From contig JAJYDL010000001.1 of the NCBI GenBank assembly GCA_021777495.1, positions 1 through 55,970 of the forward strand: 55,970 bases of DNA. Reading direction: 5' to 3'. This DNA is from a bacterium (lineage in GTDB: Bacteria; Patescibacteriota; Minisyncoccia; UBA6257; 2-01-FULL-56-20). Both the position numbers and the translations under genes were made by a program. Under the pieces are notes generated by a model. That model made no database searches and was not told the DNA's origin. It saw only the letters and a program-made list of their open reading frames with translations. This document shows, piece after piece, positions 30,346 through 50,590 of the stretch (the first letter of the stretch is position 1; every line of letters starts with the position of its first letter).

Positions 30346-31350
30346 TTATGCTCTCGGCGCGCGCGGAGGGGGCGGCGTCGGAACGCCCTTCCTTCTTCCG
30401 CGCCGGCGGAACAACCCCCGGATGCCCACATACATCGCCCAAAGCATGAGCAGTATCCCCGCAAGGACCGCAAAGGTAATAAGCTTCTCCTGCCATGGCA
30501 ATACGAGGAAGTTGTAGGGGACATATCCCGGGATGCTTCCGGGTGGCAGCACGCTCAGATCGAGCGTACCCTGTCCGATGAGATCGCTGTCATCGCGTCC
30601 GTAGATCTGATAGAAAACCTTGTACGTACCCTGGGGCAGATAGGTGGGCATCTCCGCGGTCACGGTCTTCGTCTGGAACGGGTCGACGCTCGCAAGCCAG
30701 TTGGTATTCTGCTCCACCTCGAGCACCTTCTGGGTAAGGTAGTCGCTGTACGTGAACACCACTCTGTAAGGACTCCCTGAAATGTTCCCATCGTTCTCGA
30801 TATCCATATTAAAGAGAACCTTGCCCGGGAAATGCATCCAAAGCCATGTGAATCCCTGCTCCGCGTTCGTCATCGATACTCGCCGCACCTTGAAATCCAC
30901 ATTCTTCTGGTTTATCACGCGGAGGTTCACGTCGATCTGCGCGCCGATCGTAAGGCCGACGGTCCCCGCTGCGGGACCGTTCATGGGAGAGACGACTACC
31001 TGGATATTCCCCTGGTACTGTCCGAGCTTCGCATCGCTCGGCACATTCACGCTCACGATCATCGGCATCTCCTGCGTGCCGGACGGCATCGCGAACTGCG
31101 TGCCCTTGTCGATGGAAATCCAGCCGTCCGCCCCCGGAACATTCACCGTCACCTTTGCGGTGAGGTCCTGATCCGGCGTTCCGCGCACAAGGAGGATCTT
31201 CTGTTCGTAGTGCGAACCCGGCGCAAGCGCGTCATTCGTCACGTAGGGAGGAGTGATGCCGAATCCTTCGGCGTTCACGCGATGCACGCCGAATGAAAAG
31301 CCGGCGCACACAAGAAGCGCCGCCGCCGCTATAAAGTTCATCTTCCTCAT
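30346..31350 (-). CDS. CscA/DUF916-DUF3324-like surface protein with C-terminal TM anchor (paralog 1)
   Basis: Signal peptide. Shares motifs with 46075, 48490 and 49595 (G.Y.G.I; N[DT]G[ND][IV]; LPW just before the TM helix). Basic cytoplasmic tail. Confidence 0.8.
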   Translation of the reverse strand: MRKMNFIAAAALLVCAGFSFGVHRVNAEGFGITPPYVTNDALAPGSHYEQKILLVRGTPDQDLTAKVTVNVPGADGWISIDKGTQFAMPSGTQEMPMIVSVNVPSDAKLGQYQGNIQVVVSPMNGPAAGTVGLTIGAQIDVNLRVINQKNVDFKVRRVSMTNAEQGFTWLWMHFPGKVLFNMDIENDGNISGSPYRVVFTYSDYLTQKVLEVEQNTNWLASVDPFQTKTVTAEMPTYLPQGTYKVFYQIYGRDDSDLIGQGTLDLSVLPPGSIPGYVPYNFLVLPWQEKLITFAVLAGILLMLWAMYVGIRGLFRRRGRRKGVPTPPPPRAPRA

Positions 31351-31389
31351 TGGTCCGTGAAAAAAGGAACCCCGTAAAACGTTTCAATC

Positions 31390-31398
31390 ATTATACCA
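31390..31398 (-). promoter_or_regulatory. extended -10 promoter element (TGgTATAAT)
   Basis: The minus strand reads tgTGgTATAAT, about 40 nt upstream of ATG 31350. Confidence 0.45.
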
Positions 31399-31424
31399 CA
31401 GCCGCAACGGGACCGCGCCGGAAC

Positions 31425-33293
31425 CTACCAGTACTGCGCGGGGCTCTTCACGCCAACGAACGTGTTCTGTCCGGTGTACGCACCCGAAAGCTGGATGGTG
31501 CTCGGCACCGCGATACCCCAGAAGGTGGATCCCGTGCTCGGCGATGATGTTGCGATCGACTTGGGAATATGGATCGGCACAAGCGTGCCCGGATTCGTAA
31601 GGAGCGCGGCACCCGAACCGTAGGCGACGGACGACGTCGCGTACTGTATCTGCCCCACGGGAATGGTCGATGTGGTCGAAACGGCGCAGCTCGGATAGGT
31701 GGTACACATATTCGCACCGTACAGGGTTTCATTAAGACCGACGTTTCCCGTCGATGCAAGGATCGTGGACGTAGCAAGCGTCGGCGTGCTCGACCCCGGG
31801 CTCAATCCTCCGAAGTTGATGGCGGGCGTATCGAGCTGTGCCGCAAGGAAGCTTGCGACCTCGTTGCCGGTTGCGGCTTCCGTGAGAGGGCTCGATGAGC
31901 CGTTGTGGTTCGTCGCCTGCGCGCTCACGAGCCAGTTCTGGTTGTAATACTGCGTGTCGCTCGCGGTCGTGCCGTCCGTGGGATCCGCGACATACCACAG
32001 CGGGAAATAGCAGGTCCACGTTGCGCTGATGGAGCTCGAGCCGTTGCACGATCCCGTGTCCTGCGTGCAGGTGACGGGCCACGTGGACGACCCCACCGCA
32101 TTCGGATAGCAGTTATCGGGATTGTAATTCGGCCCCGTCTGGCACGATGCCTGGCCGATACCCGAACGATACACGTTGATGATGGCGGAAGTGATCTCCT
32201 GTCCCCCGGAAATCGTCTGACAACTATTGTCGTCCGAAACCGTGAACTTTACCGCAAACCCGTTCGTCTGTCCTCCCGGCACCGTAAGCGCGAGCGGATT
32301 CGTGGTTCCGTCGTTATTCAAAAGGCTGATGCTTGAAGAAGCGATCGTAGGCGCGACGTTGTTTATCGCGTACGTGGAGGTCGCCCCTTCCGCCCCGCCC
32401 GACGCGGGAAGCCCGTGCTGGTCCACGACATACCCATAGGAAGAATAGGTTCCGTCGGGACGCGGCAACGGGGTCGTGTATGAGCAGGTGGGATTGAGGG
32501 TTGTCGTCGCGGAAGTGCAGTACGTCCCCGCAGGACCGCAGGCCGAACCCGTAAAGTCGTTCGCCTTGCAGACGAAGAGCTGGATGGTATCGGTGGCCCC
32601 CGTGAATGTGTCGCTGTCCGATGCGACCGCCGTCCAGCTGATGTTCGTCCCGGGATTCACCGGACCGGTATTCGACAGGGAAGTGAACGCGGGGGGATGG
32701 TTGACCACGAAGGGCGACCCCGTCGTATAGGTCGCGTTGCACTTTGCTCCTCCAAAGTTGTTGTCGCAGATCCACGCATACCACGAATCGAACTGCGGAT
32801 CGCTGCTCGAGGCGGTATAGGTCGTGGTTGCGGTACCCGTACTCGGCGTGACGGCGGATACGCCCCACTGATTGACGGTGCCTCCGCCGCATGTGGGCGG
32901 CCCTCCCGCCGTACCGGGAGTCGGCGTGCTCGTGGACTTACAAAGGAGGAGGTAATAGCTGTCGTTATTGGGGTCGGTTGCCACGGCGTACCACGTCACC
33001 TTACTCCCCACGTTCGTCGGCGCGGTGGTGGTGGACACCGGATTCTCGTATGCGTTCGTCGTCCAGTTCGGCGGCGTGTTGAGCACCGTCACCGTCGTCG
33101 TTGCCGTGCTTTGTGCGAAGGTAAAGCGGGCATGATAGAGAGCGCCTGTCGCCCAGAAGTTCACGATGATGGCGGCGGCGGCCATAAAGATGCCCGAAAG
33201 GATCACGGCCACGGTCACGCGGCCACGCACATCCCGGACCTGTTCCTTCCACCATGCGATCCAACGTACGATCATGTAGGGATTTTTATTCAT
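31425..33293 (-). CDS. large secreted T/S-rich surface protein, C-terminal tail type II (..YTGQNTFVGVKSPAQYW)
   Basis: 622 aa with an N-terminal TM/signal anchor. The C-terminal region of about 130 aa is homologous to that of 37462-39519. Alternative start ATG 33275. Confidence 0.85.
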   Translation of the reverse strand: MNKNPYMIVRWIAWWKEQVRDVRGRVTVAVILSGIFMAAAAIIVNFWATGALYHARFTFAQSTATTTVTVLNTPPNWTTNAYENPVSTTTAPTNVGSKVTWYAVATDPNNDSYYLLLCKSTSTPTPGTAGGPPTCGGGTVNQWGVSAVTPSTGTATTTYTASSSDPQFDSWYAWICDNNFGGAKCNATYTTGSPFVVNHPPAFTSLSNTGPVNPGTNISWTAVASDSDTFTGATDTIQLFVCKANDFTGSACGPAGTYCTSATTTLNPTCSYTTPLPRPDGTYSSYGYVVDQHGLPASGGAEGATSTYAINNVAPTIASSSISLLNNDGTTNPLALTVPGGQTNGFAVKFTVSDDNSCQTISGGQEITSAIINVYRSGIGQASCQTGPNYNPDNCYPNAVGSSTWPVTCTQDTGSCNGSSSISATWTCYFPLWYVADPTDGTTASDTQYYNQNWLVSAQATNHNGSSSPLTEAATGNEVASFLAAQLDTPAINFGGLSPGSSTPTLATSTILASTGNVGLNETLYGANMCTTYPSCAVSTTSTIPVGQIQYATSSVAYGSGAALLTNPGTLVPIHIPKSIATSSPSTGSTFWGIAVPSTIQLSGAYTGQNTFVGVKSPAQYW

Positions 33294-33335
33294 TATATCC
33301 CATGTTGTCCACAGAAAAAGGCGGGGTTATCCACA
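33292..33335 (-). promoter_or_regulatory. promoter region with paired DnaA-box-like repeats
   Basis: TATAAT (minus strand, 33297-33292). TTGTCCACA (33305-33313) and TTATCCACA (33327-33335) lie 22 nt apart start to start. Confidence 0.5.
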
Positions 33336-33375
33336 CCCTATGCAAATCCTTCCTTTTCCGTCCGGGAATCCCCCT

Positions 33376-34578
33376 TTATTTGTATCTGATGGCCTCGAGC
33401 GGACTTATGGATGAAGCCCTGCGCGCCGGGAAAATCCCCGTAATGAAGCCTACGATCGCCGAGAAAAGCGTGATAAACCCGAGGAATGTGAGGGGAAAGG
33501 CGAAAAGCGCCACCGCAGCGCCGCCGAAGTGCGTTGCCAATAGATTCAATAGATAATTGATGATGAGACCTCCGGCGATGCCTATGGCCATCCCCGTCAT
33601 GCCCCCCAGGAACCCGACCACGACCGCCTCCGCGAGGAAAAGGAACTGGATATCGCGGGGCGAACCGCCGATCGTACGCATGACGCCGATCTCCCCCGTG
33701 CGCTCAAGGAGCGTCACCGTCATGGTATTCACCATGCCGATCGCCGACACGATGAGCGCGATGCCGCCGAACCCTGCAAGGACCCATTGGACGCCGGTGA
33801 AGATCTGATTCGCCTGATCCACCGTCTTCGAGAGCGCCGACACCACATACCCATCCTTCACGATGGCGGCCTGGACGCCGCCGAGATTGCCGCTCGCGTT
33901 CACGCGCACCTGGACCTTGTCGTATTGCGGGATCCCCACCTGCGAGGAAAGCGTGGCAAGGGGAATCATCGCATAGATGGAGGCGCTGTCGTTCGTCACC
34001 CCCGTCACGGTGAAGTTCCCGTTCAGGGGCACCTGCTCGCTCTGCCCCCCGCCCTGCGCCTGCGTCACGATCCGGAACGATACCGGCTTCCCGATGATCG
34101 CCTTCGGATCGCTCACGCCGAAAAGCTGCAGCGCGGCGCTCGAAAGGATGACGTCGTTCGCATCCGAAGGCTGGTCGCTGAACTGGCTTCCTGCCGCCAT
34201 GGAAATGCCCGCGTATTTGAAATACGACGCCTGCGCCCCCTCGAGGTCCGTGTTCGCCGAAAGGCCGTTGTAGGTGATGAGCGACTGGAAGGTCGCGAGC
34301 GGCGATACGTCCTGGACGTTCGGGATCGCCTTGAACTTCGCAAGCGCGTTGTCGTCGAGCGTCACGGCGCTCGTTGCCGGCGGCGTAACGGTGAGGCTGA
34401 GGAGCGTATCGCCGAACACGATCTTCTCGAGCAGGATGTTCTGAAGGCCGAAACCGAGACCTACGAGCATCACGACCGCGGCGGTACCCACGCCCATGCC
34501 GAGGATCGTAAGCCATGTCCTTGCGGGATTGGTCTTGAACATCCTCGTGGAAAGCTTCAATGAATCGGCGACTCTCAT
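33376..34578 (-). CDS. ABC transporter permease, MacB/FtsX-like
   Basis: The N-terminal TM helix is followed by an extracytoplasmic domain of about 230 aa and then a C-terminal 3-TM FtsX domain. Confidence 0.88.
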   Translation of the reverse strand: MRVADSLKLSTRMFKTNPARTWLTILGMGVGTAAVVMLVGLGFGLQNILLEKIVFGDTLLSLTVTPPATSAVTLDDNALAKFKAIPNVQDVSPLATFQSLITYNGLSANTDLEGAQASYFKYAGISMAAGSQFSDQPSDANDVILSSAALQLFGVSDPKAIIGKPVSFRIVTQAQGGGQSEQVPLNGNFTVTGVTNDSASIYAMIPLATLSSQVGIPQYDKVQVRVNASGNLGGVQAAIVKDGYVVSALSKTVDQANQIFTGVQWVLAGFGGIALIVSAIGMVNTMTVTLLERTGEIGVMRTIGGSPRDIQFLFLAEAVVVGFLGGMTGMAIGIAGGLIINYLLNLLATHFGGAAVALFAFPLTFLGFITLFSAIVGFITGIFPARRASSISPLEAIRYK

Positions 34579-34597
34579 GGTAATAGTATAGAACGGT

Positions 34598-35908
34598 TCA
34601 GAGATACATGCCCTGCCCGATGAGCTTCTCGAGATACCAGCTCACGTGCCGCGCGGTATCGGGATCGAGGCCCATGCCGTCGCCCTCAAAAGGAGACTTG
34701 AGGCGGCGACGGAAATCCTCGGACTGGATGAATCCCCGGATGCGGAACTTGAGGAGCTCATCCATGCGCGCAATGCGCTCCGGCGGGATGCGGAACCCGC
34801 ACTCCCGCATGAGATCCTCGCGCACCTCGGCGATGCGGTCCCCCTGGCGCAGCGAGGCCACTTTTGCGGTGAAGTTATCCCGGTATGCGCGGATGTCCCG
34901 CGCCTCTTTGAGCACGATATTCAGCTTTTCTTCGAACATTTCCGCACGATGACGATCGATCTCCGGACCTCCTTCGTCCACGGACCTCGTAAGCCTGTCC
35001 ACAAACCCTTCATCCGTGAGCTTTCCGTCGATGAACATCCCGACCGTCCGTTCCAGCTGTTCGATCTGGTCGAAACCGATGTCCTGGGTGAGGAAATTCA
35101 CGACGCTCTTCACCCGCAGCTCCTCCGGCGACGCATACGGATAGATGCGCGCAAGCTTCTCGATCTCGGAAAGGATCGACGTCCCGGGGTCCACCTGCTT
35201 GATCTGTTTCTTCTCCGGGTTCACCACCTCGCGCTCCACGCCGCCGTCTTTCATGTGATAGACGCGGTGCGCATAGGGCAGCAGCTTCGCGTCATGGGTG
35301 ACGAGGATGACCGTCTTCTGCTGCTTCATGTTGATCTCCTCGAGCATGCCCATCACCTGGTCCGCCGACACGCTGTCGAGGTTGCCGACCGGTTCGTCGG
35401 CGAAAAGGATCTCCGGGTCGTTGATGAGCGAGCGCGCAACGGCGACGCGCTGCTGCTGGCCTCCCGAAAGATCCGTCGAGCGCTTGTGCGCCTGCTGATC
35501 CACGCCGAACTGTTTGAGCAGCTTCATTGCCCGCGCATACCGCTCCGCGGGCGGCACGTTTGCGAAGATGAGCGGGAGCGCGACGTTGTCGATCACGCTG
35601 AGCGACGGAATGAGGTTGAACGACTGGAAGATGATGCCCACCGTCTCCCTTTGGAACCGCACCATATCCTTCACGCCGTACTTATAGGGATTCTCCCCCT
35701 TCACGAGGATCTCCCCGGACGACGGCGGAAGAATGCCGAGCAGGCTGTAGAGCAGCGTCGATTTCCCGCAGCCCGAAGGGCCGAACAGGATGATATATTC
35801 CTTGGGATAGATCTCCAGGGTCTCCCCGCGCAGGGCATTGTATTCGTTCGACTTGCCCTGATTGTAGATGACTTTGATGTTATTTACCTTGATGATCGGC
35901 TCGAGCAT
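34598..35908 (-). CDS. ABC transporter ATP-binding protein (MacB/LolD type) with a C-terminal extension of about 210 aa
   Basis: Walker A GPSGCGKST, signature LSGGQQQR, Walker B ILFADEP. A helical extension of unknown family follows residue 225. Confidence 0.9.
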   Translation of the reverse strand: MLEPIIKVNNIKVIYNQGKSNEYNALRGETLEIYPKEYIILFGPSGCGKSTLLYSLLGILPPSSGEILVKGENPYKYGVKDMVRFQRETVGIIFQSFNLIPSLSVIDNVALPLIFANVPPAERYARAMKLLKQFGVDQQAHKRSTDLSGGQQQRVAVARSLINDPEILFADEPVGNLDSVSADQVMGMLEEINMKQQKTVILVTHDAKLLPYAHRVYHMKDGGVEREVVNPEKKQIKQVDPGTSILSEIEKLARIYPYASPEELRVKSVVNFLTQDIGFDQIEQLERTVGMFIDGKLTDEGFVDRLTRSVDEGGPEIDRHRAEMFEEKLNIVLKEARDIRAYRDNFTAKVASLRQGDRIAEVREDLMRECGFRIPPERIARMDELLKFRIRGFIQSEDFRRRLKSPFEGDGMGLDPDTARHVSWYLEKLIGQGMYL

Positions 35909-35918
35909 GGTGGTTCTC

Positions 35919-37400: not shown

Positions 37401-37461
37401 GTTGTTATGATACCACACGCCGCGGCGGCGTTCCGCGCCGCACCCATCCCTCCTTCGCTCT

Positions 37462-39519
37462 TTACGGCCACGGCAACGGGAGCTTCACGCCGACAAACGA
37501 ATTCATTCCCGTATATGTGGTCGCCATCTGTCCCGCGGGGATCGCGATGCCCCAATAGAACGTGGAGCTTTCCACCGTGGTCGTGGATACGGGCTTCGGA
37601 AGATCGATCGCCACCGTCGATCCCGGGTTCGGGAGCAGCGCCGTCCCCGACGCATAGGATATCGCGGAGGTCGCGAAATGCTGCTGTCCCACGGGAATGC
37701 TGAACGAGCTGTTCACCATGTTTGTGCCATAAAGATCCACGTTCATCGCAACGTTCCCCATCGACTGGATCACCGCCGTAGGGCCGAGGCTTGCGGTACT
37801 CGAGCCCTGCGTCAGATTGCCGTAATTTATCGTCGAGGTCGTTTCGAACGCGAGAAGCGAAAGCAGCGGCACGCCCGTCGAAGAGGCCGTGCCCGTGGCG
37901 CCCGCGGAGTCCACGGCGAGCATCGAGGCCGACCAGGAATCCCCCGCCCATGGCGTCGATGCGTCCGTCGGCTGGGCGAAATACCAGACGTGGAAACTGC
38001 AGGTTACGTTGCAGGATGTTCCCGCACAGCCGCTGAACGAACAGTCGCTCGGCGCACCTTGATAGCAATCGTTCGGATCGGGTGTGCATGCCGGCCCGAG
38101 GCTCGTGCGATAGAGCGTGCTCGTCACCGTCTGGATGTCGGTAAACCCGTTACCGTCGCTCACCGTTGCCGTGGCCGTGATGAGCGTCGTCGTCCCCTCG
38201 ATAAGGGCGATGCTCTGCCCCCCATTCAGGCTGACGGGGCCTATCGTCGGAGGAACATTTCCGATGGTGACTTCCGGATATGCGGCATAGGACGCAAACG
38301 GCGTACCGTTTGATTCCACGGCCCGGAAGCAGAACGTGGATCCTCCGGGCGCGCTGTTGTCGATGAGCGCGAAGTCCCACTTCCCGTCCTCTCCCGGAAG
38401 GATCGCGCCCTGCGAGTTCGTGAAGGTGTTCGCCTCCACATAGGTCTGATTCACGATGGTGTTTGTTCCGTCGACGGGATCGGTCGACGTAGGTACGAGC
38501 GGATCCCCGTTCGCGGGGGTCGGGTTGTTATAGAACTCGATATACCCCGTCGAGGTCGCCACATCGGCGTACGCCCCCGTCGGTGCCGCGCATGTTCCCG
38601 TTCCCATGTCGGCCATCTGCAATTTAAATGAGCGATTTCCCGCGGCGAGCTGGTTCGTCGCCACATTGACGAGCATGCGGAGGCGGAAAGGCGCCGTAAG
38701 CGATGCGAGCACCGTCGACGCGTTCTGCAATGCGAGCGGAGGCCCCACGCTCGCGCTGTCCGTATTCGAAAACCATCGGAATGCGTTCTGGCTGAACGTG
38801 ATCTGCGCTTTGAAGCTCACGATCTGCCCTATCCATGCACCGGACGCCGCCGCGGTGCCGACGGTCGAATAGGTCCCCGTTGCGTTCACCACCCGGTCCG
38901 CGCCGCTGTAGGTTGCGCGCGAACCGTGACTGCCGTTCGCGTTCGAAAAATCGTTTTCTTTGGTAAAGGAGTTGCTCCACGAAGAAAATGTTGTTTGCGC
39001 AATGATCGTGGTGGCCGCGAAAAGCAGTTCGTCCGGCTGGACCGTCGTGATTGCCGCTCCGTTCGTCGCCGTACCCGTACCCGCTGTCGATGTCGCTTGA
39101 TCAAGGGGGTTTACTGCCGATAATCCGCTGTATTCATAAATATGGAGGCCCAACTGCAGCGAAGATGCCGTAGTCACGGTAACCGCGGTAGGCTCGCCGG
39201 TTCCCGCCACCTTATAAAATATCGCCTGGCTCGGAGTTCCTGCGACGTTGAGCGCCACCGACCATCCGGACGGCACATTGATCCCGGTATTTCCGCCTGC
39301 GCCAAGTACGGCAATGAGGAGGTCGCCCGCGGTAGGCGTCGTCCCGAATGTCGCGGTCACGGTGTTCGCGCCGCCTCCCGCGCTCGTATTGCTCGCCGTC
39401 TGGATGAGCGTCGTCGTGGCGCGCGCGAAGGGCCACAGTACGAACACGCGGCTCACCGCGAGCCATGCGAGGAGCAGGCCGGCAAGGACTATGCCGAAAG
39501 AATAGATGCGGCGCATCAT
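37462..39519 (-). CDS. large secreted surface protein, one adhesin-type module plus C-terminal tail type II (..YTGMNSFVGVKLPLPWP)
   Basis: 685 aa with a signal anchor. Module motifs are FRWFSNTDS, FRLRM, FKLQM, FCFRAV and YAAYPEV. The C-terminus is homologous to that of 31425-33293. Confidence 0.85.
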   Translation of the reverse strand: MMRRIYSFGIVLAGLLLAWLAVSRVFVLWPFARATTTLIQTASNTSAGGGANTVTATFGTTPTAGDLLIAVLGAGGNTGINVPSGWSVALNVAGTPSQAIFYKVAGTGEPTAVTVTTASSLQLGLHIYEYSGLSAVNPLDQATSTAGTGTATNGAAITTVQPDELLFAATTIIAQTTFSSWSNSFTKENDFSNANGSHGSRATYSGADRVVNATGTYSTVGTAAASGAWIGQIVSFKAQITFSQNAFRWFSNTDSASVGPPLALQNASTVLASLTAPFRLRMLVNVATNQLAAGNRSFKLQMADMGTGTCAAPTGAYADVATSTGYIEFYNNPTPANGDPLVPTSTDPVDGTNTIVNQTYVEANTFTNSQGAILPGEDGKWDFALIDNSAPGGSTFCFRAVESNGTPFASYAAYPEVTIGNVPPTIGPVSLNGGQSIALIEGTTTLITATATVSDGNGFTDIQTVTSTLYRTSLGPACTPDPNDCYQGAPSDCSFSGCAGTSCNVTCSFHVWYFAQPTDASTPWAGDSWSASMLAVDSAGATGTASSTGVPLLSLLAFETTSTINYGNLTQGSSTASLGPTAVIQSMGNVAMNVDLYGTNMVNSSFSIPVGQQHFATSAISYASGTALLPNPGSTVAIDLPKPVSTTTVESSTFYWGIAIPAGQMATTYTGMNSFVGVKLPLPWP

Positions 39520-39562
39520 GGTGTCATTTTACCACGCTTGCGCACGCGCCCGTCCCCTCTTC

Positions 39563-43888: not shown

Positions 43889-43925
43889 ATTATATCTAAG
43901 TATAGCACACCCTCCCGCCGCTTTT

Positions 43926-45620: not shown

Positions 45621-45632
45621 CTTATTATGGTA

Positions 45633-46061
45633 TCACGCCGCGGTCGGCGTTTCCTTCCCCTGCTCAGGGCCTCCCCTCCATTCCCCGCGCTCGCGGCGCG
45701 CGCCAAGATGGAAACTGAGCCCCGCGAAAAACGCGAGGACCCCTATCACAACCATGAAATACCACGGTATCGCCGCGGGCGATGCGGATCCTCCCGTCGT
45801 CGTCGCGGATGCAAGCGCGGCCCTCTGCGCCGCAAGGTCGGCGGCCTCCATATCGAGCTGGGTCTTCTCCTGGCTCAACTGCGCATTCAAAGTATTGTAG
45901 GGATTCGGCGCGACGCCCACGACCACGCCCACCTGCGCGAGCATGCTCTTCGCCGGAGCAAATCCTTCCGGCATGCGCGCGATCATAAATATGCTTCCGG
46001 CGACGACCGTTGCGGCCGCCGCCATGAGCATCGTTCCCATCCTTCCTTTTGGCATGTTCAT
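45633..46061 (-). CDS. small two-TM membrane protein with a central coiled-coil segment
   Basis: 142 aa. TM helices MLMAAAATVVAGSIFMIA and WYFMVVIGVLAFFAGLSF. Confidence 0.65.
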   Translation of the reverse strand: MNMPKGRMGTMLMAAAATVVAGSIFMIARMPEGFAPAKSMLAQVGVVVGVAPNPYNTLNAQLSQEKTQLDMEAADLAAQRAALASATTTGGSASPAAIPWYFMVVIGVLAFFAGLSFHLGARRERGEWRGGPEQGKETPTAA

Positions 46062-46074
46062 GCCGGGAAAACCG

Positions 46075-47187
46075 CTATCCGAAGAAGAAGAACAGGATCA
46101 TCAGGAATATGACCGCGAATACCACCGTCGCCACGAGTATGAAGATGAGGCGCGAGAACGGAAGCCTCCCTTCGGCGAGAAGACGCTCCTCGGCGGAGAC
46201 CGATGCCGCGGCACCCTGACGTCCGTCGGTCATTGCCGCGATCTTCTTTCTTACATACGCCCGCACGCCCCAGATGAAGCCGAACACGACAAGCAGGAGG
46301 ATGATGAGGAGCGCGAGGATCGGCACGATGGGGATGATCCAGAACGAGGTTTCCTGGGACACCGTCTTTTGGGCATTGTCTCCGTAGGTGAGCGACATCA
46401 CCGCATCGAACCGTCCCATCATGAACCCTCCGCTCGTCCAATTCACCGTGAACGTCCGGTCCTGGCCCGGGAAAATGGCATCGTTAGAATCGTTCATGAT
46501 GACCGTCCCCACCTTCTGCCCGAACATGTTCGTAATATCGATCGGGCCGCGCGGGCGAAGCAAAACGTTTCCGGTGTCGGCGACGTCCGCCCCGAACGTC
46601 ACGTTCGCGTTCTGATAGAGGCCCTTGTCCGTCGAGAACGAGCGGATCTCCGCCGTCTCATTCGCCTGTCCCGCAATCCTGAAGTCGAGAAGCGAGCCGA
46701 CCTGGTAGCCGATGCCGGTTCCCGTGAACTCCGGACGCGTTGCGCCGTAGGTCACGAAAATGGCGCCATAGTGGCCGCCGGGGGCGGCAGTCGAGGGGAC
46801 GTTCACGGTGAAGGGCACCGTCACGGATCCTCCCGCAGGAATGGTGATGGTGGGATTCTGCACGCTTACCCACGAACTTATCCCGTATTCGGGAACCGAG
46901 GAACTGGTGAATTCCGGCTCTCCGCCGCTATTAAGGCCCGATATGTCCTTCACGCTCACGGTGTAGGTGCGCGACACGGCATCCGGATTCGTGACGGTGA
47001 TCGAGGTGGAGAACTTATCGCCGGGATTCACGATCTGCTGGAAGATCGCGGGCTGAACTTTGACTCCCGTCGCGTCGGCGCCCGGAGTCCCGGGGGCGGA
47101 CTGCGCAAATGCAATTCCTCCGATAAGGACCGCGGCGGCCATGCCGGCGAGGACCGCTCCCCATGCCTTTTTCTTCATTACATGCAT
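46075..47187 (-). CDS. CscA/DUF916-DUF3324-like surface protein with C-terminal TM anchor (paralog 2)
   Basis: Signal peptide and the motifs GGHYGAIFV, DTGNVLLRPRGPIDITNMFG and FWIIP followed by a TM helix. Confidence 0.8.
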   Translation of the reverse strand: MHVMKKKAWGAVLAGMAAAVLIGGIAFAQSAPGTPGADATGVKVQPAIFQQIVNPGDKFSTSITVTNPDAVSRTYTVSVKDISGLNSGGEPEFTSSSVPEYGISSWVSVQNPTITIPAGGSVTVPFTVNVPSTAAPGGHYGAIFVTYGATRPEFTGTGIGYQVGSLLDFRIAGQANETAEIRSFSTDKGLYQNANVTFGADVADTGNVLLRPRGPIDITNMFGQKVGTVIMNDSNDAIFPGQDRTFTVNWTSGGFMMGRFDAVMSLTYGDNAQKTVSQETSFWIIPIVPILALLIILLLVVFGFIWGVRAYVRKKIAAMTDGRQGAAASVSAEERLLAEGRLPFSRLIFILVATVVFAVIFLMILFFFFG

Positions 47188-47225
47188 CGTATCATGCCCC
47201 GACGCGCCCTTTCAAGCCGGATGGC

Positions 47226-48359
47226 TTAGAAGGTCGGCGTTGCAACGTAGATCAGGTTGTTCGTGTAGTCGTTCGCGGCAGGCTGCAGCGTACCGATCTC
47301 GATGCGGTAGGCGACCTTCGCGGTGCCCACGTTCTGCGTCGTGCCGTCGGCGGGACCGTTCCATGCGAACACGGTGAGCGTGGATGTCGGATTGATGCTT
47401 CCGGCGTAGAGCGGCGTGCTCGTGCCGAAGCTCGGTGCGCCCACGAGAGAACTGCTTGCGTCATCGCTTGTCACGCCGAGATGGCCGTATGTCGCAGGCT
47501 GGTTGATGATGTTGCTCGGCGCAGCCCACGGACTCGGCGTGGACGTGGCGTTGCCGTTATCGAAAAGATGGATGGTGTTCCCCGTCTGGCTCGTAAGGTC
47601 CTGGTCCTCGTGGACCGTCACCGCAAAGCCGTTCGCGGCGTTCGTCGTCACATACAACTGCTGTCCAAGCTCGGCGTGGGTGTTCGGCGAGATGATGCCG
47701 AAGGGAACCGTGGTAGAAGTGGATGCCCCCGTCGTCGTCGCGCCGTTCCCGAGCGTCGTGGATGTCGCAAGCCCCGCCACCGTGAAGGTGAAGGTTGTGG
47801 CGACCGCAGCCGTCACATTGACCCCGTTCACGATCGCGACACGGGTTGCCGCGGAATTCGCCCCCGCCGCAACGTTTATCACATAGGATCCGGTGCTCGT
47901 CGGGTTCGTGATCGTATTATTCAAAACCTTAAGGGTGACCGTTCCTGCGGGGATGGTCGCACCGCCGCAGACGGTGAATACGAGCGAATTCGTGGTGGTT
48001 GCCAGGCTTACGTTGGTACCTCCGTTGCTGCAGGTATATCCGGCAATGGTCATTCCCGTGGAGGTAACATCCGCAATCACTACTCCTCCTACGTTGCCGA
48101 ATGCACTCGTCGTGGGATCGAATGTATAGGTGATCGTCTGACCGCTTACGGTACTCGTCGAATCGGTGAACGCTATTGTGTGGTTCGCCGCAAACCCCGG
48201 GCGGGAATCGGACAATGTGTCGCTCACTGAGGTAAGGCTCACCGCGTGGGCCGTGCTTATGAAGCGAAGCATCGTGCTCCACGAAACGAGGCTTACGATC
48301 AAGCCTGCCGCGACCGCGATTACGACATCACGTTTTATCATCGTCCTTTTGCTGAACAT
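47226..48359 (-). CDS. secreted protein, C-terminal tail type I (..DYTNNLIYVATPTF), WxL-analogous
   Basis: 377 aa with a signal anchor. The C-terminal domain (PFGIISPN...TNAANGFAVTV...YTNNLIYVATPTF) is homologous to the C-terminus of 50604-54749. Confidence 0.85.
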   Translation of the reverse strand: MFSKRTMIKRDVVIAVAAGLIVSLVSWSTMLRFISTAHAVSLTSVSDTLSDSRPGFAANHTIAFTDSTSTVSGQTITYTFDPTTSAFGNVGGVVIADVTSTGMTIAGYTCSNGGTNVSLATTTNSLVFTVCGGATIPAGTVTLKVLNNTITNPTSTGSYVINVAAGANSAATRVAIVNGVNVTAAVATTFTFTVAGLATSTTLGNGATTTGASTSTTVPFGIISPNTHAELGQQLYVTTNAANGFAVTVHEDQDLTSQTGNTIHLFDNGNATSTPSPWAAPSNIINQPATYGHLGVTSDDASSSLVGAPSFGTSTPLYAGSINPTSTLTVFAWNGPADGTTQNVGTAKVAYRIEIGTLQPAANDYTNNLIYVATPTF

Positions 48360-48410
48360 GGGATACTCTTTATTGAAAGAGGGGTTTGCTTTTTTATTCG
48401 ACTTGTATTC

Positions 48411-48457
48411 ATTCTATCACAACAGGTTGTCCCCATTACAAGGGGTACTTATCCACA
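48411..48457 (-). promoter_or_regulatory. promoter region with paired DnaA-box-like repeats
   Basis: TGaTAGAAT (-10 at 48416-48411, minus strand). TTGTCCCCA (48427-48435) and TTATCCACA (48449-48457) lie 22 nt apart start to start. Confidence 0.5.
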
Positions 48458-48489
48458 GGCACTGAAGAGCGTGCACACTCCGCCCGCGA

Positions 48490-49602
48490 TCACTTCTTTC
48501 TGAGATCGACCGTCCCCTCCGGACCGCTCCGCGGGGCGTGAGGATGAGGAGGCTCGTGCGGCGGTTTCGGCCCCGGAGAACCATACCGTCCCATTTCCCG
48601 TTCGAGCATCTTTTTCACGTAACGCCGGAGAAGTATCACGAATCCGCCGATCACAAGAAGCGCGATCGCACCGTCTTCCGCGAGCATTCCCACCGGCAAC
48701 ACCCAGAACGTGAGCGTCTGGGACACGCTCTTCGTTCCGTCCGTGCCGTACGCAAGAGTGACGACCGCAGTAAAACGCCCTATATCCCACAAATTTCCCG
48801 GTCCCTGCCATTCCTCGCTGAACTTGCGGCTGCTCGAAGGCAGCACGTACCCGAACGTCTGCTCCTGATTCACCGGAACCGTCCCCTCCTCCTTTCCAAA
48901 CGCGTTATAGATCTGGATCTCCCCTACCGGACGCACGTGAACGTTGCCCGTGTTCGCAAACACGAGATTGAAGTTCACGTCGGGTCTTTGATAGAACCCT
49001 TTGTCCGTGGAAAATTCCTGGATGTTCCCGGATTCTTTTATATCCCCCGATACCGTGACGAATATAAGCGCCGAGATGAAGCTCGATATGCCGATATGGG
49101 ACCCCGCCGGAGCGCCGGATTCCCCCGGCGGCTGCGTACCGATCAGGATGCCGGCGTAATGCCCTCCGGGGGATGCGTCCTTCGGCACGGCTATCGAGAA
49201 CGGAATGTCCGCCGCGCTTCCCGGCGGCACCACCGCGGTGGAAGACCCGAGCGTTATCCAGTTCGCGAGAGCGTCGGAATCTCCCGCGATCGCCGAAAGA
49301 TTTTTGAATGTGCCGTGGCCCTCCTGATCGGAGGGCGCAAACCCCATCACCGTCGCCACCACGGGAAGCGGTGCGGCGTTCGTGTTCACCACGCGGATAG
49401 AGCTCGCCCACGCATCGCCGGGCGACGCATTGAGCGTGAAGAACGGCGGCGTGATGGTGAGCGACGTCGCATCGGCCGACTGCGCGTCCGCGCGGGACAC
49501 GAAGCACGGCGCTCCCGCCGCGAGCGCGATAAGGACGAACATCGCGCCCGCCGCGGCGCGGCGCATCCCTCCGAACATCATCGTGCGTGCGCCGTTATTC
49601 AT
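48490..49602 (-). CDS. CscA/DUF916-DUF3324-like surface protein with C-terminal TM anchor (paralog 3)
   Basis: Signal peptide and the motifs GGHYAGILIG, NTGNVHVRPVGEIQIYNAFG and FWVLP followed by a TM helix. Pro/His-rich cytoplasmic tail. Confidence 0.8.
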   Translation of the reverse strand: MNNGARTMMFGGMRRAAAGAMFVLIALAAGAPCFVSRADAQSADATSLTITPPFFTLNASPGDAWASSIRVVNTNAAPLPVVATVMGFAPSDQEGHGTFKNLSAIAGDSDALANWITLGSSTAVVPPGSAADIPFSIAVPKDASPGGHYAGILIGTQPPGESGAPAGSHIGISSFISALIFVTVSGDIKESGNIQEFSTDKGFYQRPDVNFNLVFANTGNVHVRPVGEIQIYNAFGKEEGTVPVNQEQTFGYVLPSSSRKFSEEWQGPGNLWDIGRFTAVVTLAYGTDGTKSVSQTLTFWVLPVGMLAEDGAIALLVIGGFVILLRRYVKKMLEREMGRYGSPGPKPPHEPPHPHAPRSGPEGTVDLRKK

Positions 49603-50590
49603 GGTGGTGGGGATGCTTAAGGTCTATCACCTGTTTGTTCTTGAGGAGATGTTCGATGAGCTGGCGTCGACGATGATGCCGTTTCGCGTATTCGCGATGC
49701 AAGAACGATGCGGCCACGATCACCACAATGAGCAGCGTGATGAAGATTGCGAGCAGCTCCTTCCATGGAAGGATCCAGAAGATCGCCGTATCCGCAAGTT
49801 GCGCGTCCTGGGCCCCATAGGCCGCTTCGAGCCCTACTTTATATTCCCCCATACCGCCCGCTCCGTTCCATGAAGCGGTGAAGTTCTTGGTGTCTCCCGG
49901 TGCGATGGAGATTCCCTCCGGATTCACGGGCACCGATCCGAGGTCGTGTCCGATGCGGTCGTAGAATATCACGTCCCCGCCCGGGTCCGAGGGTACATCG
50001 CCCGTATTCTTGATGGCGTAGTCCACCACGACCGGGAACCCCGCGGACACCCTCTTTTCCGGACCGAAACTCACAAGCTGAAGCTCTTCTTTAAGGTCGG
50101 ATATGACCGTGAAGTTCACAAGCGCCTGGGGCGCTCCGTCGAGATGCTGCTCGGCTTCGGCCCTCGTCCCTCCTTCCACGAACGCCACGACGGCATGATA
50201 ATCGCCCGCCGTCGCATAGGGATTGATCGTCACGCTCATCGGAATTGTCTTCGTCTCTCCGGGAGCGAAGATCATCGCCCCGCGCGAAATCCCTATCCAA
50301 TCGGCCAGGAACGCCGGCCGGTCCGAGCTCGCGGGATCCGTAAAGGGCTGCGTTCCGCTCGCCGTGAGTTCGTACACCGACGCGAAAACATTGAGCTGTC
50401 TGCCGCTCGTGTTCGTGACCGTGAGCGTGTAATTGAACATGTCGTCCGGGACCCCGCTCGTGTCGATCACCGCGGGCGCGACCGTAAGGTCCGCGGCATG
50501 CGCGACAGGCGCGGCGCGCATCCACGCCGCGGCGGAAAACGCCATGATGGCGGCGAGGAGCAGGATCGGATGTGATATGCGCTTCATCAT
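49595..50590 (-). CDS. CscA/DUF916-DUF3324-like surface protein with C-terminal TM anchor (paralog 4)
   Basis: Signal peptide and the motifs AGDYHAVVAFV, NTGDVPSDPGGDVIFYDRIG and FWILPW followed by a TM helix. His-rich tail. 8-nt overlap with paralog 3. Confidence 0.8.
   Translation of the reverse strand: MMKRISHPILLLAAIMAFSAAAWMRAAPVAHAADLTVAPAVIDTSGVPDDMFNYTLTVTNTSGRQLNVFASVYELTASGTQPFTDPASSDRPAFLADWIGISRGAMIFAPGETKTIPMSVTINPYATAGDYHAVVAFVEGGTRAEAEQHLDGAPQALVNFTVISDLKEELQLVSFGPEKRVSAGFPVVVDYAIKNTGDVPSDPGGDVIFYDRIGHDLGSVPVNPEGISIAPGDTKNFTASWNGAGGMGEYKVGLEAAYGAQDAQLADTAIFWILPWKELLAIFITLLIVVIVAASFLHREYAKRHHRRRQLIEHLLKNKQVIDLKHPHHHE

What the first reader, a model, noticed from the sequence alone, without database searches (positions are those of the whole stretch)
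30346..50590. Four paralogous signal-peptide / two-domain / C-terminal-anchor proteins (CscA/DUF916-DUF3324-like)
ORFs 30346-31350, 46075-47187, 48490-49602 and 49595-50590 are 331-370 aa and share four features. (1) A first-domain motif G-x-Y-x-(G/A)-x-(I/V): GQYQGNIQV, GGHYGAIFV, GGHYAGILI, AGDYHAVVA. (2) A second-domain motif N(D/T)G(N/D)(I/V)...P.G.I.(I/F)(Y/T)N..G. (3) A juxtamembrane F-W-(I/V)-(I/L)-P(W) motif. (4) A single C-terminal TM helix with a basic or His-rich tail. Three of them flank the type I tail gene. This layout matches the membrane-anchored CscA component of WxL clusters, which is an inference from the motifs only.
Basis: partly seen in the sequence, partly recalled or inferred. 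Interest (0 to 1): 0.7.

Follow-up and report, generated by a model that had tools for sequence, protein, structure and literature searches.

The report
WxLIP-like surface anchors in a CPR bacterium
Four membrane-anchored two-domain proteins in this candidate-phyla-radiation (Paceibacterota) genome are remote relatives of the WxL-interacting protein of lactic acid bacteria. Each sits directly after a gene for a secreted protein with a conserved, unannotated C-terminal "tail" domain, which suggests a widespread way for these tiny bacteria to hold proteins on their surface.

Summary
The four minus-strand ORFs are true paralogs (B-C 33% identity, E 2e-53; A is the most distant). Each has a signal peptide, two beta-sandwich domains and a C-terminal TM helix with a basic tail.

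The CscA / DUF916-DUF3324 (WxLIP) reading is supported as remote homology:
- Profile-profile comparison with seven genuine Firmicute WxLIPs gives Prob 98.9%, E 3.8e-17 over both domains.
- The family profile hits PDB EfmWxLIP1 at E 1e-6.
- The AlphaFold model of B has the E. faecium WxLIP crystal structures (9i1y, 9i25) as top Foldseek hits (E 2e-13).

These proteins are not ordinary members. No window protein reaches the Pfam DUF916 cut-off, none hits DUF3324, and the NQIDKxxxYFDLK motif is deleted. The neighbouring "tail" proteins show no significant similarity to WxL domains.

The partner is an unannotated domain (933 clusters at 50% identity). It lies at the extreme C-terminus in all 150 representatives listed. 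In 82 of 90 cases across 80 Patescibacteria loci it is encoded immediately upstream of the WxLIP-like genes.

Most likely mechanism (inferred): the membrane-anchored proteins bind the tail domains and hold secreted surface proteins on the cell. This is a new variant of a known kind, outside the known Lactobacillales/Bacillales range.

The parts
46075..47187 (-). B-type WxLIP-like protein (370 aa): signal peptide, DUF916-like domain, DUF3324-like domain, TM helix, cytoplasmic loop, second TM helix
   Evidence: ORF. PF06030 E 2e-5, 25.0 bits. AF2 pLDDT 86.8 with two beta-sandwich domains plus helices 287-326 and 344-369. Foldseek top hits 9i1y/9i25_C. hhalign against genuine WxLIP Prob 98.9%.
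46672..47070 (-). B domain 1 (residues 40-172), remote DUF916 / PGBD homolog
   Evidence: Domain-only hhalign against the genuine WxLIP domain 1: Prob 97.6%, E 3.9e-12, reversed control E 0.39. Profile hit to EfmWxLIP1 residues 23-145.
46693..46746 (-). Conserved Gly-rich loop of B (residues 148-165); low model confidence; candidate partner-binding hairpin
   Evidence: The pLDDT block for residues 151-160 is 58, flanked by blocks of 88-97. G158 and V163 are invariant and G156, G160, G164 nearly invariant in B-type orthologs. It aligns with the loop preceding the conserved IKNEY strand of genuine WxLIP. Its role is inferred.
46333..46671 (-). B domain 2 (residues 173-285), probable DUF3324 / HBD counterpart
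   Evidence: Covered by the whole-protein hhalign alignment and by the Foldseek alignment to 9i1y. Alone it gives Prob 40%, E 3e-4, against controls of 0.07-0.39. No PF11797 hit.
46249..46329 (-). B transmembrane helix 1 (residues 287-313), preceded by the FWIIP juxtamembrane motif and followed by a basic stretch
   Evidence: Hydropathy, AF2 helix, motif position.
46078..46170 (-). B second C-terminal hydrophobic helix (residues 340-370); B-type only
   Evidence: Hydropathy, AF2 helix 344-369, conserved LPFSRLxFI...FFFFG in B-type orthologs.
48490..49602 (-). C-type WxLIP-like paralog (370 aa)
   Evidence: 33% identity to B, E 2e-53. PF06030 E 0.053. LIP profile E 3e-106.
49595..50590 (-). D-type WxLIP-like paralog (331 aa); overlaps the start of C by 8 nt
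   Evidence: 27% identity to B and C, E ~1e-25. LIP profile E 7e-77.
30346..31350 (-). A-type WxLIP-like paralog (334 aa), its own orthologous group
   Evidence: BLASTP to B, C, D at E 1e-3 to 2e-9. LIP profile E 1e-49. 172 homologs found. Conserved position after an approximately 625-aa protein in L093-L095.
47226..48359 (-). T1: small secreted protein (377 aa) = signal peptide + Ig-like N-domain + type I tail domain; gene immediately upstream of B
   Evidence: ORF. 905 homologs, up to 78% identical. AF2 pLDDT 91.6. T1 followed by B-type LIP in 41 adjacent pairs across CPR loci.
47229..47804 (-). Type I tail domain of T1 (residues 186-377), ending ...NDYTNNLIYVATPTF
   Evidence: Shared with the C-terminus of T2, E 2.4e-16. 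933 50%-identity clusters at E <= 1e-3; in every one of the 150 listed representatives the match ends at or within a few residues of the C-terminus. No Pfam family.
50604..54749 (-). T2: large secreted protein (1381 aa) with an N-terminal signal anchor, a Gly-rich region, repeats and a C-terminal type I tail; gene immediately upstream of D and C
   Evidence: ORF and hydropathy. No Pfam hit. The arrangement bigtail-D-C-T1-B occurs in 16 loci in full and 3 more as D-C-T1-B only.
50607..51137 (-). Type I tail domain of T2 (residues 1205-1381)
   Evidence: 34% identical to the T1 tail. T1 profile positions 188-376 match T2 residues about 1206-1381 (reported as 1209-1384 on the stop-to-stop ORF), E 2.4e-16.
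31425..33293 (-). 622-aa secreted protein with a 'type II' tail (...AYTGQNTFVGVKSPAQYW); gene immediately upstream of A
   Evidence: ORF. Tail shared with 37462-39519. Orthologs of 625-627 aa sit directly upstream of A-type genes in L093-L095. No Pfam hit.
37462..39519 (-). Second type II tail protein (685 aa); no adjacent WxLIP-like gene
   Evidence: BLASTP E 4e-36 to 31425-33293, strongest over the C-terminal ~150 aa.
45633..46061 (-). Small 142-aa protein directly downstream of B, apparently with hydrophobic segments near both ends; a gene of similar size holds this position in related loci
   Evidence: ORF; the hydrophobic segments are read from its sequence only and were not scored. A 123-aa gene occupies the same position in L001/L002, but its homology to this ORF was not tested. 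No Pfam hit.

Best explanation
The four ORFs are type I membrane proteins. Each has a cleavable signal peptide, two extracellular Ig-like beta-sandwich domains, a TM helix and a basic cytoplasmic tail. They are remote homologs of the WxL-interacting protein (WxLIP / CscA, DUF916+DUF3324) of Lactobacillales and Bacillales.

Each one, or each tandem pair, is encoded directly downstream of a secreted protein whose extreme C-terminus carries a conserved tail domain and no other retention signal. The pairings are T2 followed by D and C, T1 followed by B, and the 622-aa type II tail protein followed by A.

The most likely mechanism follows the solved E. faecium WxLIP-long WxL complex. The membrane-anchored ectodomain binds the partner's C-terminal tail non-covalently, probably through domain 1 and its conserved flexible Gly-rich loop, and so holds secreted surface proteins on the envelope of this Paceibacterota (CPR) cell.

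Shown here: paralogy, homology to WxLIP, fold, topology signals, and conserved gene adjacency with tail-domain proteins. Inferred: physical binding, the loop as the interface, and the anchoring function.
For: Homology:
- PF06030 hit for B at E 2e-5, and for 35 of 48 family members.
- Family profile against PDB EfmWxLIP1, E 1e-6.
- hhalign against 7 genuine WxLIPs: Prob 98.9%, E 3.8e-17 over 231 columns spanning both domains.
- Domain 1 alone: 97.6%, E 3.9e-12. Domain 2 alone: E 3e-4, against controls of 0.07-0.39.
- The CPR profile hits genuine WxLIPs in L005, L007 and L008 at 1e-10 to 1e-11.
- A 7-sequence Firmicute WxLIP HMM hits about 20 of the CPR proteins at 1e-3 to 4e-8.

Structure: AF2 pLDDT 86.8. 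The Foldseek top three are 9i1y_A, 9i1y_B and 9i25_C ('WxLIP bound to long WxL') at E 2e-13.

Topology: N-terminal signal with AxA sites, and a TM helix followed by basic residues.

Partnership:
- 82 of 90 WxLIP-like gene runs in 80 Patescibacteria loci are directly preceded, on the same strand, by a tail-domain ORF.
- T1 followed by B occurs in 41 adjacent pairs, and the window's full order recurs in 16 loci.
- A-type genes follow an approximately 625-aa type II tail protein in 3 of 3 distant loci.
- In the 150 listed representatives the tail matches run to, or within a few residues of, the protein C-terminus, in proteins of 178-2469 aa. This mirrors the small/large WxL grammar (PMC9772566, PMC10599100).
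- T1 and T2 contain no hydrophobic segment other than the N-terminal one.
Against: - No interaction was tested.
- No window protein reaches the Pfam DUF916 gathering score, and DUF3324 is never hit.
- The WxLIP hallmark NQIDKxxxYFDLK falls in an 11-residue gap.
- The tail shows no significant similarity to WxL. There are no Pfam hits in 45 homologs. hhalign gives Prob 0.8-3.4%, barely above reversed controls. No WxL HMM hit appears in the window or in 80 CPR loci. No WxL chain appears in the Foldseek top 50 for T1. The analogy therefore transfers a binding mode to a partner of unproven relatedness.
- The AF2 monomer model of the T1 tail is confident and complete. That gives no sign of a missing strand needing complementation.
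Confidence: 0.62

Rival explanations
1. Membrane-tethered assembly chaperone. The two-Ig-domain proteins act like PapD-type chaperones of chaperone-usher pili. They transiently cap an exposed edge of the tail domain as it leaves the Sec channel, then hand T1 (a very conserved, probably abundant protein) over for polymerisation into a fibre or surface layer. They would not serve as the permanent anchor.
For: After the WxLIP structures, the best Foldseek matches of B are chaperone-usher chaperones: CfaA, YadV, FimC, CsuC and PapD at E 1e-9 to 1e-7, with TM about 0.5-0.6 on the target. C has a weak NCBIfam hit to a fimbrial chaperone model, E 0.004. T1 is more conserved than its partner: listed T1 homologs stay at 44% identity or more, while B homologs fall to 24%. 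Foldseek of T1 finds the TasA fibre (8aur, E 8e-4) and BslA (E 1.6e-4). Strand insertion from DUF916 into WxL was predicted for the Firmicute system (PMC10599100).
Against: The WxLIP structures score four orders of magnitude better than the chaperones. No usher-like or polymerisation machinery was seen among the annotated genes near the cluster. The TasA match is poor (TM 0.31, rmsd 11). The permanent TM anchor and the one-to-one gene pairing fit a stoichiometric anchor at least as well.
Confidence: 0.18
2. Autonomous surface proteins. The four proteins are stand-alone Ig-like adhesins or metal-binding (CopC-like) membrane proteins, and their adjacency to tail proteins reflects only a shared surface-protein island.
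For: A hits Pfam CopC exactly at its cut-off (23.3 bits, E 1.3e-4, residues 181-255). Some A-type homologs carry PF04234 or a JGI 'CopC' name. B also matches generic Ig-like families: fn3_5 at 32.4 bits, FixG_C and NPCBM_assoc. The island is rich in unrelated surface modules such as cohesin, dockerin and fn3.
Against: Adjacency is specific and directional: 82 of 90 gene runs are immediately preceded by a tail-domain ORF across widely divergent CPR lineages, with fixed paralog-partner pairing. The CopC match covers an internal beta-sandwich and sits exactly at threshold. By general knowledge of CopC, its copper site uses the mature N-terminal histidine, which an internal domain cannot supply; this was not tested here. 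Homology to WxLIP is far stronger than to any generic Ig family.
Confidence: 0.07
3. The locus is a bona fide but extremely diverged WxL cluster. The type I (and type II) tails are true WxL-domain homologs in which the two Trp-x-Leu motifs have become F-x-V and Y-x-A. The mechanism would then be identical to the Firmicute system, so this rival concerns classification and is compatible with the best explanation.
For: The grammar is the same: C-terminal-only domain, small and large carriers, and a neighbouring WxLIP (PMC10599100). The best, though non-significant, hhalign segments fall on the two WxL motifs in colinear order. GFAVTVHEDQDLTS aligns with GWSLSVVQNGQFKT, and VAYRIEI..LQPAANDYTNNLIYV aligns with VKLNVPGSSVKLAKEYRTTLTWN. 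The type II tail's best match to WxL is the same C-terminal motif. 142 of 147 tail representatives end in Y-x3-h-x-[Y/F]-x-small-x-P. In T1 the N-terminal strand is followed by a ~30-residue coil, as described for WxL domains (PMC9772566).
Against: The scores are 23 against 16-19 for reversed controls. There are no Pfam WxL hits and no WxL HMM hits. The defining Trp residues are absent. No WxL chain is in the Foldseek top 50 for T1.
Confidence: 0.3

Closest known systems
WxLIP / CscA (DUF916 [PF06030, PGBD] + DUF3324 [PF11797, HBD] + TM helix) of WxL/csc clusters in Lactobacillales and Bacillales; structures 9i1y and 9i25 (E. faecium)
   Same: Signal peptide, two tandem Ig-like domains, a C-terminal TM helix and a size of 331-370 aa (published range 320-380). 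Remote but significant sequence homology and best structural match. Encoded next to secreted proteins that carry a dedicated C-terminal domain, in both a small and a large version.
   Different: Below Pfam thresholds, with no DUF3324 HMM hit. The NQIDKxxxYFDLK motif is deleted. The partner domain is not recognisably WxL. There are three to four paralogs per locus with fixed partner pairing, and the B-type has a second TM helix. No LPXTG protein or sortase was noted among the genes examined next to the cluster, though this was not searched for specifically. The host is a Patescibacteria lineage rather than Bacillota.
WxL domain proteins (PF13731; CscB/CscC, small and large WxL)
   Same: The tail is always the last domain. 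It occurs in short proteins and in giant multi-domain proteins, is encoded beside the WxLIP-type gene, and has a conserved aromatic-x-aliphatic motif near a terminal Pro.
   Different: There are no Trp-x-Leu motifs and no significant profile, HMM or Foldseek similarity. The common small form carries an extra BslA-like Ig N-domain, rather than being tail-only.
PapD-like periplasmic chaperones of chaperone-usher pili (CfaA, FimC, CsuC)
   Same: A two-Ig-domain architecture with clear fold similarity (Foldseek E 1e-9 to 1e-7). Partner binding through beta-strand complementation is conceivable.
   Different: The proteins here are membrane-anchored rather than soluble. No usher was seen, the envelope is presumably monoderm, and similarity is weaker than to WxLIP.
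Cohesin-dockerin surface anchoring
   Same: A non-covalent module pair that tethers secreted proteins to a membrane- or wall-bound scaffold. It is present in the same island: cohesin genes at 28179-29150 and 41488-43398, dockerin genes at 29179-30336 and 43926-45620.
   Different: The folds and sequence families are unrelated. It appears to be a parallel, independent tethering system in the same locus.

Membership tests
WxLIP (DUF916-DUF3324-TMH; CscA) | N-terminal signal peptide | tested here: met
   All four have a hydrophobic N-terminal segment ending in an AxA-type site (VNA, AFA, ADA, AHA). This rests on hydropathy and inspection; no dedicated predictor was available.
WxLIP (DUF916-DUF3324-TMH; CscA) | DUF916/PGBD domain by Pfam PF06030 gathering score (27.3 bits) | tested here: not met
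   B scores 25.0 bits (E 2e-5), C 14.0 bits, and A and D have no hit.
WxLIP (DUF916-DUF3324-TMH; CscA) | First domain homologous to DUF916/PGBD (profile or structure level) | tested here: met
   35 of 48 family members hit PF06030 at E <= 0.01. The profile hits EfmWxLIP1 at E 1e-6. Domain-only hhalign gives Prob 97.6%, E 3.9e-12, against a reversed control of 0.39.
WxLIP (DUF916-DUF3324-TMH; CscA) | Second domain = DUF3324/HBD (PF11797), directly following DUF916 | tested here: inconclusive
   There is no PF11797 hit in the 4 window proteins or in 48 relatives. The whole-protein hhalign alignment runs colinearly through it, and the Foldseek alignment covers about 263 columns of the 267-residue 9i1y_A. 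Alone it gives Prob 40%, E 3e-4, against controls of 0.07-0.39.
WxLIP (DUF916-DUF3324-TMH; CscA) | Single C-terminal transmembrane helix | tested here: met
   All four have a TM helix right after domain 2. B and its orthologs have an additional terminal helix.
WxLIP (DUF916-DUF3324-TMH; CscA) | Conserved N-terminal NQIDKxxxYFDLK sequence (PMC10599100) | tested here: not met
   In the hhalign alignment the CPR profile has an 11-column gap opposite nQ.D....; only the YFDLK positions align, to unrelated residues.
WxL cluster (Hassan et al. 2023 definition) | At least one WxLIP plus at least two WxL-domain proteins within four genes | tested here: not met
   A WxL HMM built from 9 genuine proteins finds nothing in the window or in 80 CPR loci. 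T1, T2 and 45 T1 homologs have no Pfam WxL hit. Two tail-domain proteins occupy the equivalent positions.
WxL cluster (Hassan et al. 2023 definition) | Physical binding of the WxLIP to the partner's C-terminal domain | not testable with these tools
WxL domain (PF13731), considered for the tail domains | Two Trp-x-Leu motifs on adjacent strands | tested here: not met
   The candidate equivalent positions read G-F-A-V and I-Y-V-A. 139 of 142 motif-matching tails have Y and none has W. Strand adjacency could not be checked because no coordinates were accessible.
WxL domain (PF13731), considered for the tail domains | Significant sequence, profile or fold similarity to WxL domains | tested here: not met
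   hhalign gives Prob 0.8-3.4%, with scores of 23 against 16-19 for reversed controls. The PDB profile search finds no hit. No WxL chain is in the Foldseek top 50.
WxL domain (PF13731), considered for the tail domains | Domain always C-terminal; small and large carrier proteins in one cluster | tested here: met
   All 150 listed representatives have the match running to, or within a few residues of, the last residue, in proteins of 178-2469 aa. T1 (377 aa) and T2 (1381 aa) lie in the same locus.
PapD-like chaperone (chaperone-usher pathway) | Soluble two-Ig-domain chaperone encoded with an usher and pilins | tested here: not met
   Fold similarity is present (E 1e-9). The proteins are TM-anchored, however, and no usher-like gene was seen in the window or the syntenic loci.

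The most novel reading that the evidence does not exclude
The WxLIP-like anchor plus tail-domain pair is the general, sortase-independent surface-display system of Patescibacteria. In this reading T1 is a major envelope or fibre subunit, the giant tail-bearing proteins are host-attachment adhesins of these episymbionts, and the tail is the W-less ancestral or sister form of the WxL domain. WxL/WxLIP would then be an ancient monoderm invention rather than a Lactobacillales/Bacillales speciality.
Probability: 0.25. Interest if true: 0.8.

Novelty: new variant of a known kind. Interest (0 to 1): 0.6.

Why it matters
WxL/WxLIP clusters are described as being almost entirely confined to Lactobacillales and Bacillales (PMC10599100). 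Their mechanism is only now being resolved structurally (9i1y and 9i25, released 2026).

This analysis finds a clearly homologous membrane anchor across Patescibacteria. Relatives occur in 259 places among species-representative genomes, and the anchor is rigidly paired with an unannotated C-terminal domain found in about 930 sequence clusters. That gives CPR bacteria a concrete, testable candidate for how surface proteins are retained; their envelope and host-attachment biology is largely unknown.

It also defines a new C-terminal 'address tag' that can be used to list the displayed surface proteome of these organisms. It offers a natural experiment on what in the WxL-WxLIP interface is essential, because here the Trp-x-Leu motifs and the NQIDK motif are both missing.

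Tried and rejected
1. Direct Pfam and NCBIfam assignment. Only sub-threshold DUF916 hits appeared, with no DUF3324 and no NCBIfam model. Profile and structure methods were therefore needed.

2. Tail = WxL. This was tested six ways:
- Pfam on 45 T1 homologs.
- PDB sequence profile.
- hhalign with the T1 family.
- hhalign with a 152-sequence diverse tail alignment, against small and small+long WxL alignments, in local, low-mact and global modes with reversed-alignment controls.
- WxL HMM against the window and 80 CPR loci.
- Foldseek of the T1 model.
All were non-significant. Only colinear motif-level hints remain.

3. Locating the WxL chain of 9i25 by sequence, so that its Foldseek rank could be checked. 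A small-WxL profile and two long WxL proteins found no PDB chain. The absence of a WxL hit in the T1 top 50 therefore could not be tied to a specific chain.

4. Type II tail against type I tail and WxL. Only weak colinear matches were found (E 0.03-0.2, reversed 0.5-0.6), so the relationship is unresolved.

5. Foldseek of T1 against viral structures was uninformative.

6. CopC reading of paralog A. The hit sits exactly at threshold on an internal beta-sandwich. It was rejected as the primary function.

7. Tail-only 'small' proteins. The short representatives are mostly N-terminally truncated fragments. Only the 208-aa ORF in L003 is a weak candidate (E 0.011).

8. A literature search for WxL, DUF916 or WxLIP together with Patescibacteria found nothing relevant.

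9. A first attempt at search for related loci with the 48-sequence alignment failed because it was too diverse. A narrower alignment worked.

Full report
**Observation**

The four ORFs are present exactly as reported, all on the minus strand with ATG starts:
- A: 30346-31350, 334 aa
- B: 46075-47187, 370 aa
- C: 48490-49602, 370 aa
- D: 49595-50590, 331 aa

They are genuine paralogs. BLASTP gives B-C 33% identity over 336 residues (E 2e-53), B-D and C-D 27% (E about 1e-25), and A against the others E 1e-3 to 2e-9. A profile built from the four finds no further copy among the window's six-frame ORFs.

The quoted motif strings are at the stated places. In a 48-member family alignment the corresponding positions are among the nearly invariant columns: PGG-H-Y, G-N-V and F-W-x-x-P.

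Small corrections apply. B reads DTGNV rather than N(D/T)G. A reads FLVLP rather than F-W. B has a second hydrophobic helix at its very C-terminus, conserved in its orthologs.

All four have a hydrophobic N-terminus ending in an AxA-type site, and a basic stretch right after the TM helix. The ectodomain is therefore expected outside, with the tail in the cytoplasm.

**Organism and context**

The closest homologs come from Candidatus Paceibacterota / Parcubacteria metagenome-assembled genomes. One species representative is 93% identical (L013).

The region from 28 to 56 kb is a single-strand island of surface-protein genes. It holds:
- cohesin and dockerin proteins
- an fn3 protein
- a MacB/FtsX-type ABC transporter
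- an Hsp20
- several large proteins with no Pfam match

**Are they WxLIP / CscA-like?**

Single-sequence Pfam scans give only a near-miss. B matches PF06030 (WxLIP_PGBD, formerly DUF916) over model positions 19-119 of 121, at E 2e-5 and 25.0 bits, against a cut-off of 27.3. C matches at E 0.05. Nothing matches PF11797 (DUF3324).

At family level the signal is consistent:
- 35 of 48 relatives hit PF06030 at E <= 0.01, the best at 2.4e-7.
- A profile of the family hits the PDB sequences of EfmWxLIP1 (9i25_C, 9i1y_A) at E 1e-6. A weak colinear second segment falls in domain 2.

For a proper comparison I fetched genuine WxL loci from plasmids of Enterococcus, Lactococcus, Listeria and Lactiplantibacillus. 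I aligned seven annotated 'DUF916 and DUF3324 domain-containing' proteins (A4) and nine small WxL proteins (A5).

Results for the CPR family against A4:
- hhalign gives Prob 98.9%, E 3.8e-17 over 231 columns, query 39-274 against template 34-284, which spans both domains.
- Domain 1 alone gives Prob 97.6%, E 3.9e-12, with a reversed control of 0.39.
- Domain 2 alone gives Prob 40%, E 3e-4, with reversed and cross-domain controls of 0.07-0.39.
- The CPR HMM finds the genuine WxLIPs in three Firmicute loci at 1e-10 to 1e-11.
- The small Firmicute HMM finds about 20 CPR proteins at E values between 1e-3 and 4e-8.

The AlphaFold2 model of B has mean pLDDT 86.8. It shows two beta-sandwich domains and a long TM helix. 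Its three best Foldseek matches in the PDB are the E. faecium WxLIP structures, including 'WxLIP bound to long WxL', at E 2e-13 over about 263 columns. Chaperone-usher chaperones follow at E 1e-9 to 1e-7.

The interpretation 'CscA / DUF916-DUF3324-like' is therefore supported. It is firm for domain 1 and probable for domain 2.

**What is not canonical**

The published hallmark sequence NQIDKxxxYFDLK (PMC10599100) lies opposite an 11-column gap in the CPR profile. No Pfam threshold is passed by the window proteins.

The published definition of a WxL cluster requires one WxLIP plus two WxL proteins within four genes (PMC10599100). That is not met. No WxL domain is detected in T1, T2, 45 T1 homologs, the window or 80 related loci.

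**The partners**

T1 (47226-48359, 377 aa) and T2 (50604-54749, 1381 aa) share a C-terminal domain of about 190 residues, 34% identical; the T1 profile matches T2 at E 2.4e-16.

A profile of this tail finds 933 clusters at 50% identity with E <= 1e-3. In every one of the 150 listed, the match runs to the end of the protein or within a few residues of it. Those proteins range from 178 to 2469 residues; the shortest are mostly truncated. 142 of 147 end in Y-x3-h-x-Y/F-x-small-x-P.

T1 also has an Ig-like N-domain. It resembles BslA by Foldseek and recurs in the dockerin protein at 43926-45620.

T1 and T2 have no hydrophobic segment other than the N-terminal one, so they have no evident way of staying on the cell by themselves.

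A second, 'type II' tail is shared by 31425-33293 and 37462-39519.

**Gene-order evidence**

A scan of species-representative genomes found 259 places encoding a relative. All 80 loci retained are from metagenome bins, mostly named as Patescibacteria lineages: Parcubacteria, Paceibacterota, Kaiser-, Sung-, Harrison-, Falkow-, Uhr-, Doudna- and Buchananbacteria. Some carry other labels, such as 'Saccharibacteria' and 'Gammaproteobacteria', which I suspect are mislabels but did not check.

In those 80 loci, 82 of the 90 WxLIP-like gene runs with enough upstream sequence are immediately preceded, on the same strand, by an ORF carrying the tail.

Classifying the paralogs gives the following:
- T1 followed by B-type in 41 adjacent pairs.
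- The window's full order, large tail protein - D - C - T1 - B, in 16 loci, plus D-C-T1-B alone in 3 more.

The A-type forms its own orthologous group. In three distant genomes (labelled Lloydbacteria, Giovannonibacteria and one unnamed bin) it sits in the order ABC ATPase - MacB permease - approximately 625-aa type II tail protein - A-type - DUF4215/dockerin protein, exactly as in the window.

This is the same grammar as Firmicute WxL clusters: a small and a large carrier of a C-terminal domain next to the membrane-anchored two-domain protein.

**Is the tail a WxL domain?**

I could not show it.
- hhalign of the T1 family or of a 152-sequence diverse tail alignment against WxL alignments gives Prob 0.8-3.4%, with scores of 23 against 16-19 for reversed controls.
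- The PDB profile search is empty.
- Foldseek of the T1 model (pLDDT 91.6) lists generic two-Ig adhesins, BslA and the TasA fibre, but no WxL chain in its top 50.
- I could not identify the WxL chain of 9i25 by sequence, so its rank could not be checked.

Hints remain. The best local alignments fall, in colinear order, on the two WxL motifs. GFAVTVHEDQ aligns with GWSLSVVQNGQ, and AANDYTNNLIYV aligns with AKEYRTTLTWN. The type II tail's best match to WxL is the same C-terminal motif. I put a true remote relationship at about 0.3.

**Mechanism**

Shown here:
- homology of the four proteins to WxLIP
- the two-Ig-domain fold
- type I topology signals
- operon-like spacing
- strict, lineage-wide adjacency to tail-domain genes with fixed paralog-partner pairing

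Inferred from the solved WxLIP-long WxL complex and the predicted strand insertion (PMC10599100): the ectodomain binds the tail of the protein encoded upstream and keeps it on the cell surface.

A plausible contact element is the loop at residues 148-165 of B. It is Gly-rich, strongly conserved and of low model confidence (pLDDT block 58). It lies at the position of the flexible loop before the conserved IKNEY strand of WxLIP.

The main rival is a membrane-tethered, PapD-like assembly chaperone for T1. It rests on fold similarity and on T1's high conservation. An autonomous adhesin or CopC-like role is unlikely given the synteny.

**Novelty and verdict**

WxL systems are described as almost entirely confined to Lactobacillales and Bacillales (PMC10599100). 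I found no paper linking them to Patescibacteria.

The finding is a real, conserved system. It is a distant WxLIP-type anchor family in CPR bacteria, paired with an unannotated C-terminal domain that replaces, or is an unrecognisably diverged form of, WxL.

It is a new variant of a known kind and of moderate-to-high interest. It gives a testable model for surface display in organisms whose envelope biology is poorly known, and a sequence tag for cataloguing their displayed proteins. The decisive missing test is co-folding or binding of each ectodomain with its partner's tail.

Noticed in passing
window 28179-29150, 29179-30336, 41488-43398, 43926-45620: Cohesin and dockerin modules lie in the same island. 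Two proteins have a cohesin domain and end in a hydrophobic stretch (the second scores 46.6 bits, the first is below threshold). Two proteins end in dockerins, and one of them carries the T1-type N-domain. This looks like a second non-covalent surface-tethering system beside the WxLIP-like/tail pairs.
   Followed up: partly
window 33376-35908; L093-L095: A MacB/FtsX-type permease and an ABC ATPase sit directly upstream of the type II tail protein and the A-type paralog. The order is conserved in three distant CPR bins (two labelled Lloydbacteria and Giovannonibacteria), which suggests a functional link, such as export or assembly.
   Followed up: partly
window 55852-55970 and 53288-53406: The last 119 nt of the window are 100% identical to an internal stretch of T2. 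Other segments of T2 and the upstream partial ORF 54746-55963 are 76-86% identical. The window length equals the longest contig reported for these proteins (55970). The contig probably breaks inside a repeat shared by two giant paralogous surface genes.
   Followed up: partly
window 46078-46170 (B residues 340-370): B-type proteins carry a second, conserved hydrophobic helix (LPFSRLxFI...FFFFG) after a cytoplasmic loop of about 25 residues. A, C, D and the canonical WxLIPs lack it.
   Followed up: partly
window 43286-43888: An Hsp20-family small heat-shock gene is embedded in the surface-protein operon, overlapping the start of the cohesin gene. It holds the same position in L001/L002.
   Followed up: no
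window 47805-48242 (T1 residues 40-185); 43926-45620: By Foldseek, the T1 N-domain resembles the biofilm hydrophobin BslA (TM 0.6-0.67 on the target, E 1.6e-4). It recurs at the N-terminus of the 564-aa dockerin protein and its 560-650-aa orthologs a few kb downstream of B-type genes.
   Followed up: partly
window 30346-31350 (A residues 181-255): The second domain of A hits Pfam CopC exactly at the gathering score (23.3 bits). Some orthologs are named CopC by JGI. This is probably fold-level resemblance only.
   Followed up: partly
L003 8657-9283 and 9355-9984: In a divergent Paceibacterota locus, two proteins of about 208 aa precede the WxLIP-like gene. One weakly matches the tail profile (E 0.011). 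They may be tail-only 'small' partners, analogous to small WxL proteins.
   Followed up: partly
window 50604-54749 (T2 N-terminal third): T2 has a long Gly/Ala/Thr-rich low-complexity region after its signal anchor, and internally repeated modules of about 150-200 aa. None matches Pfam.
   Followed up: no
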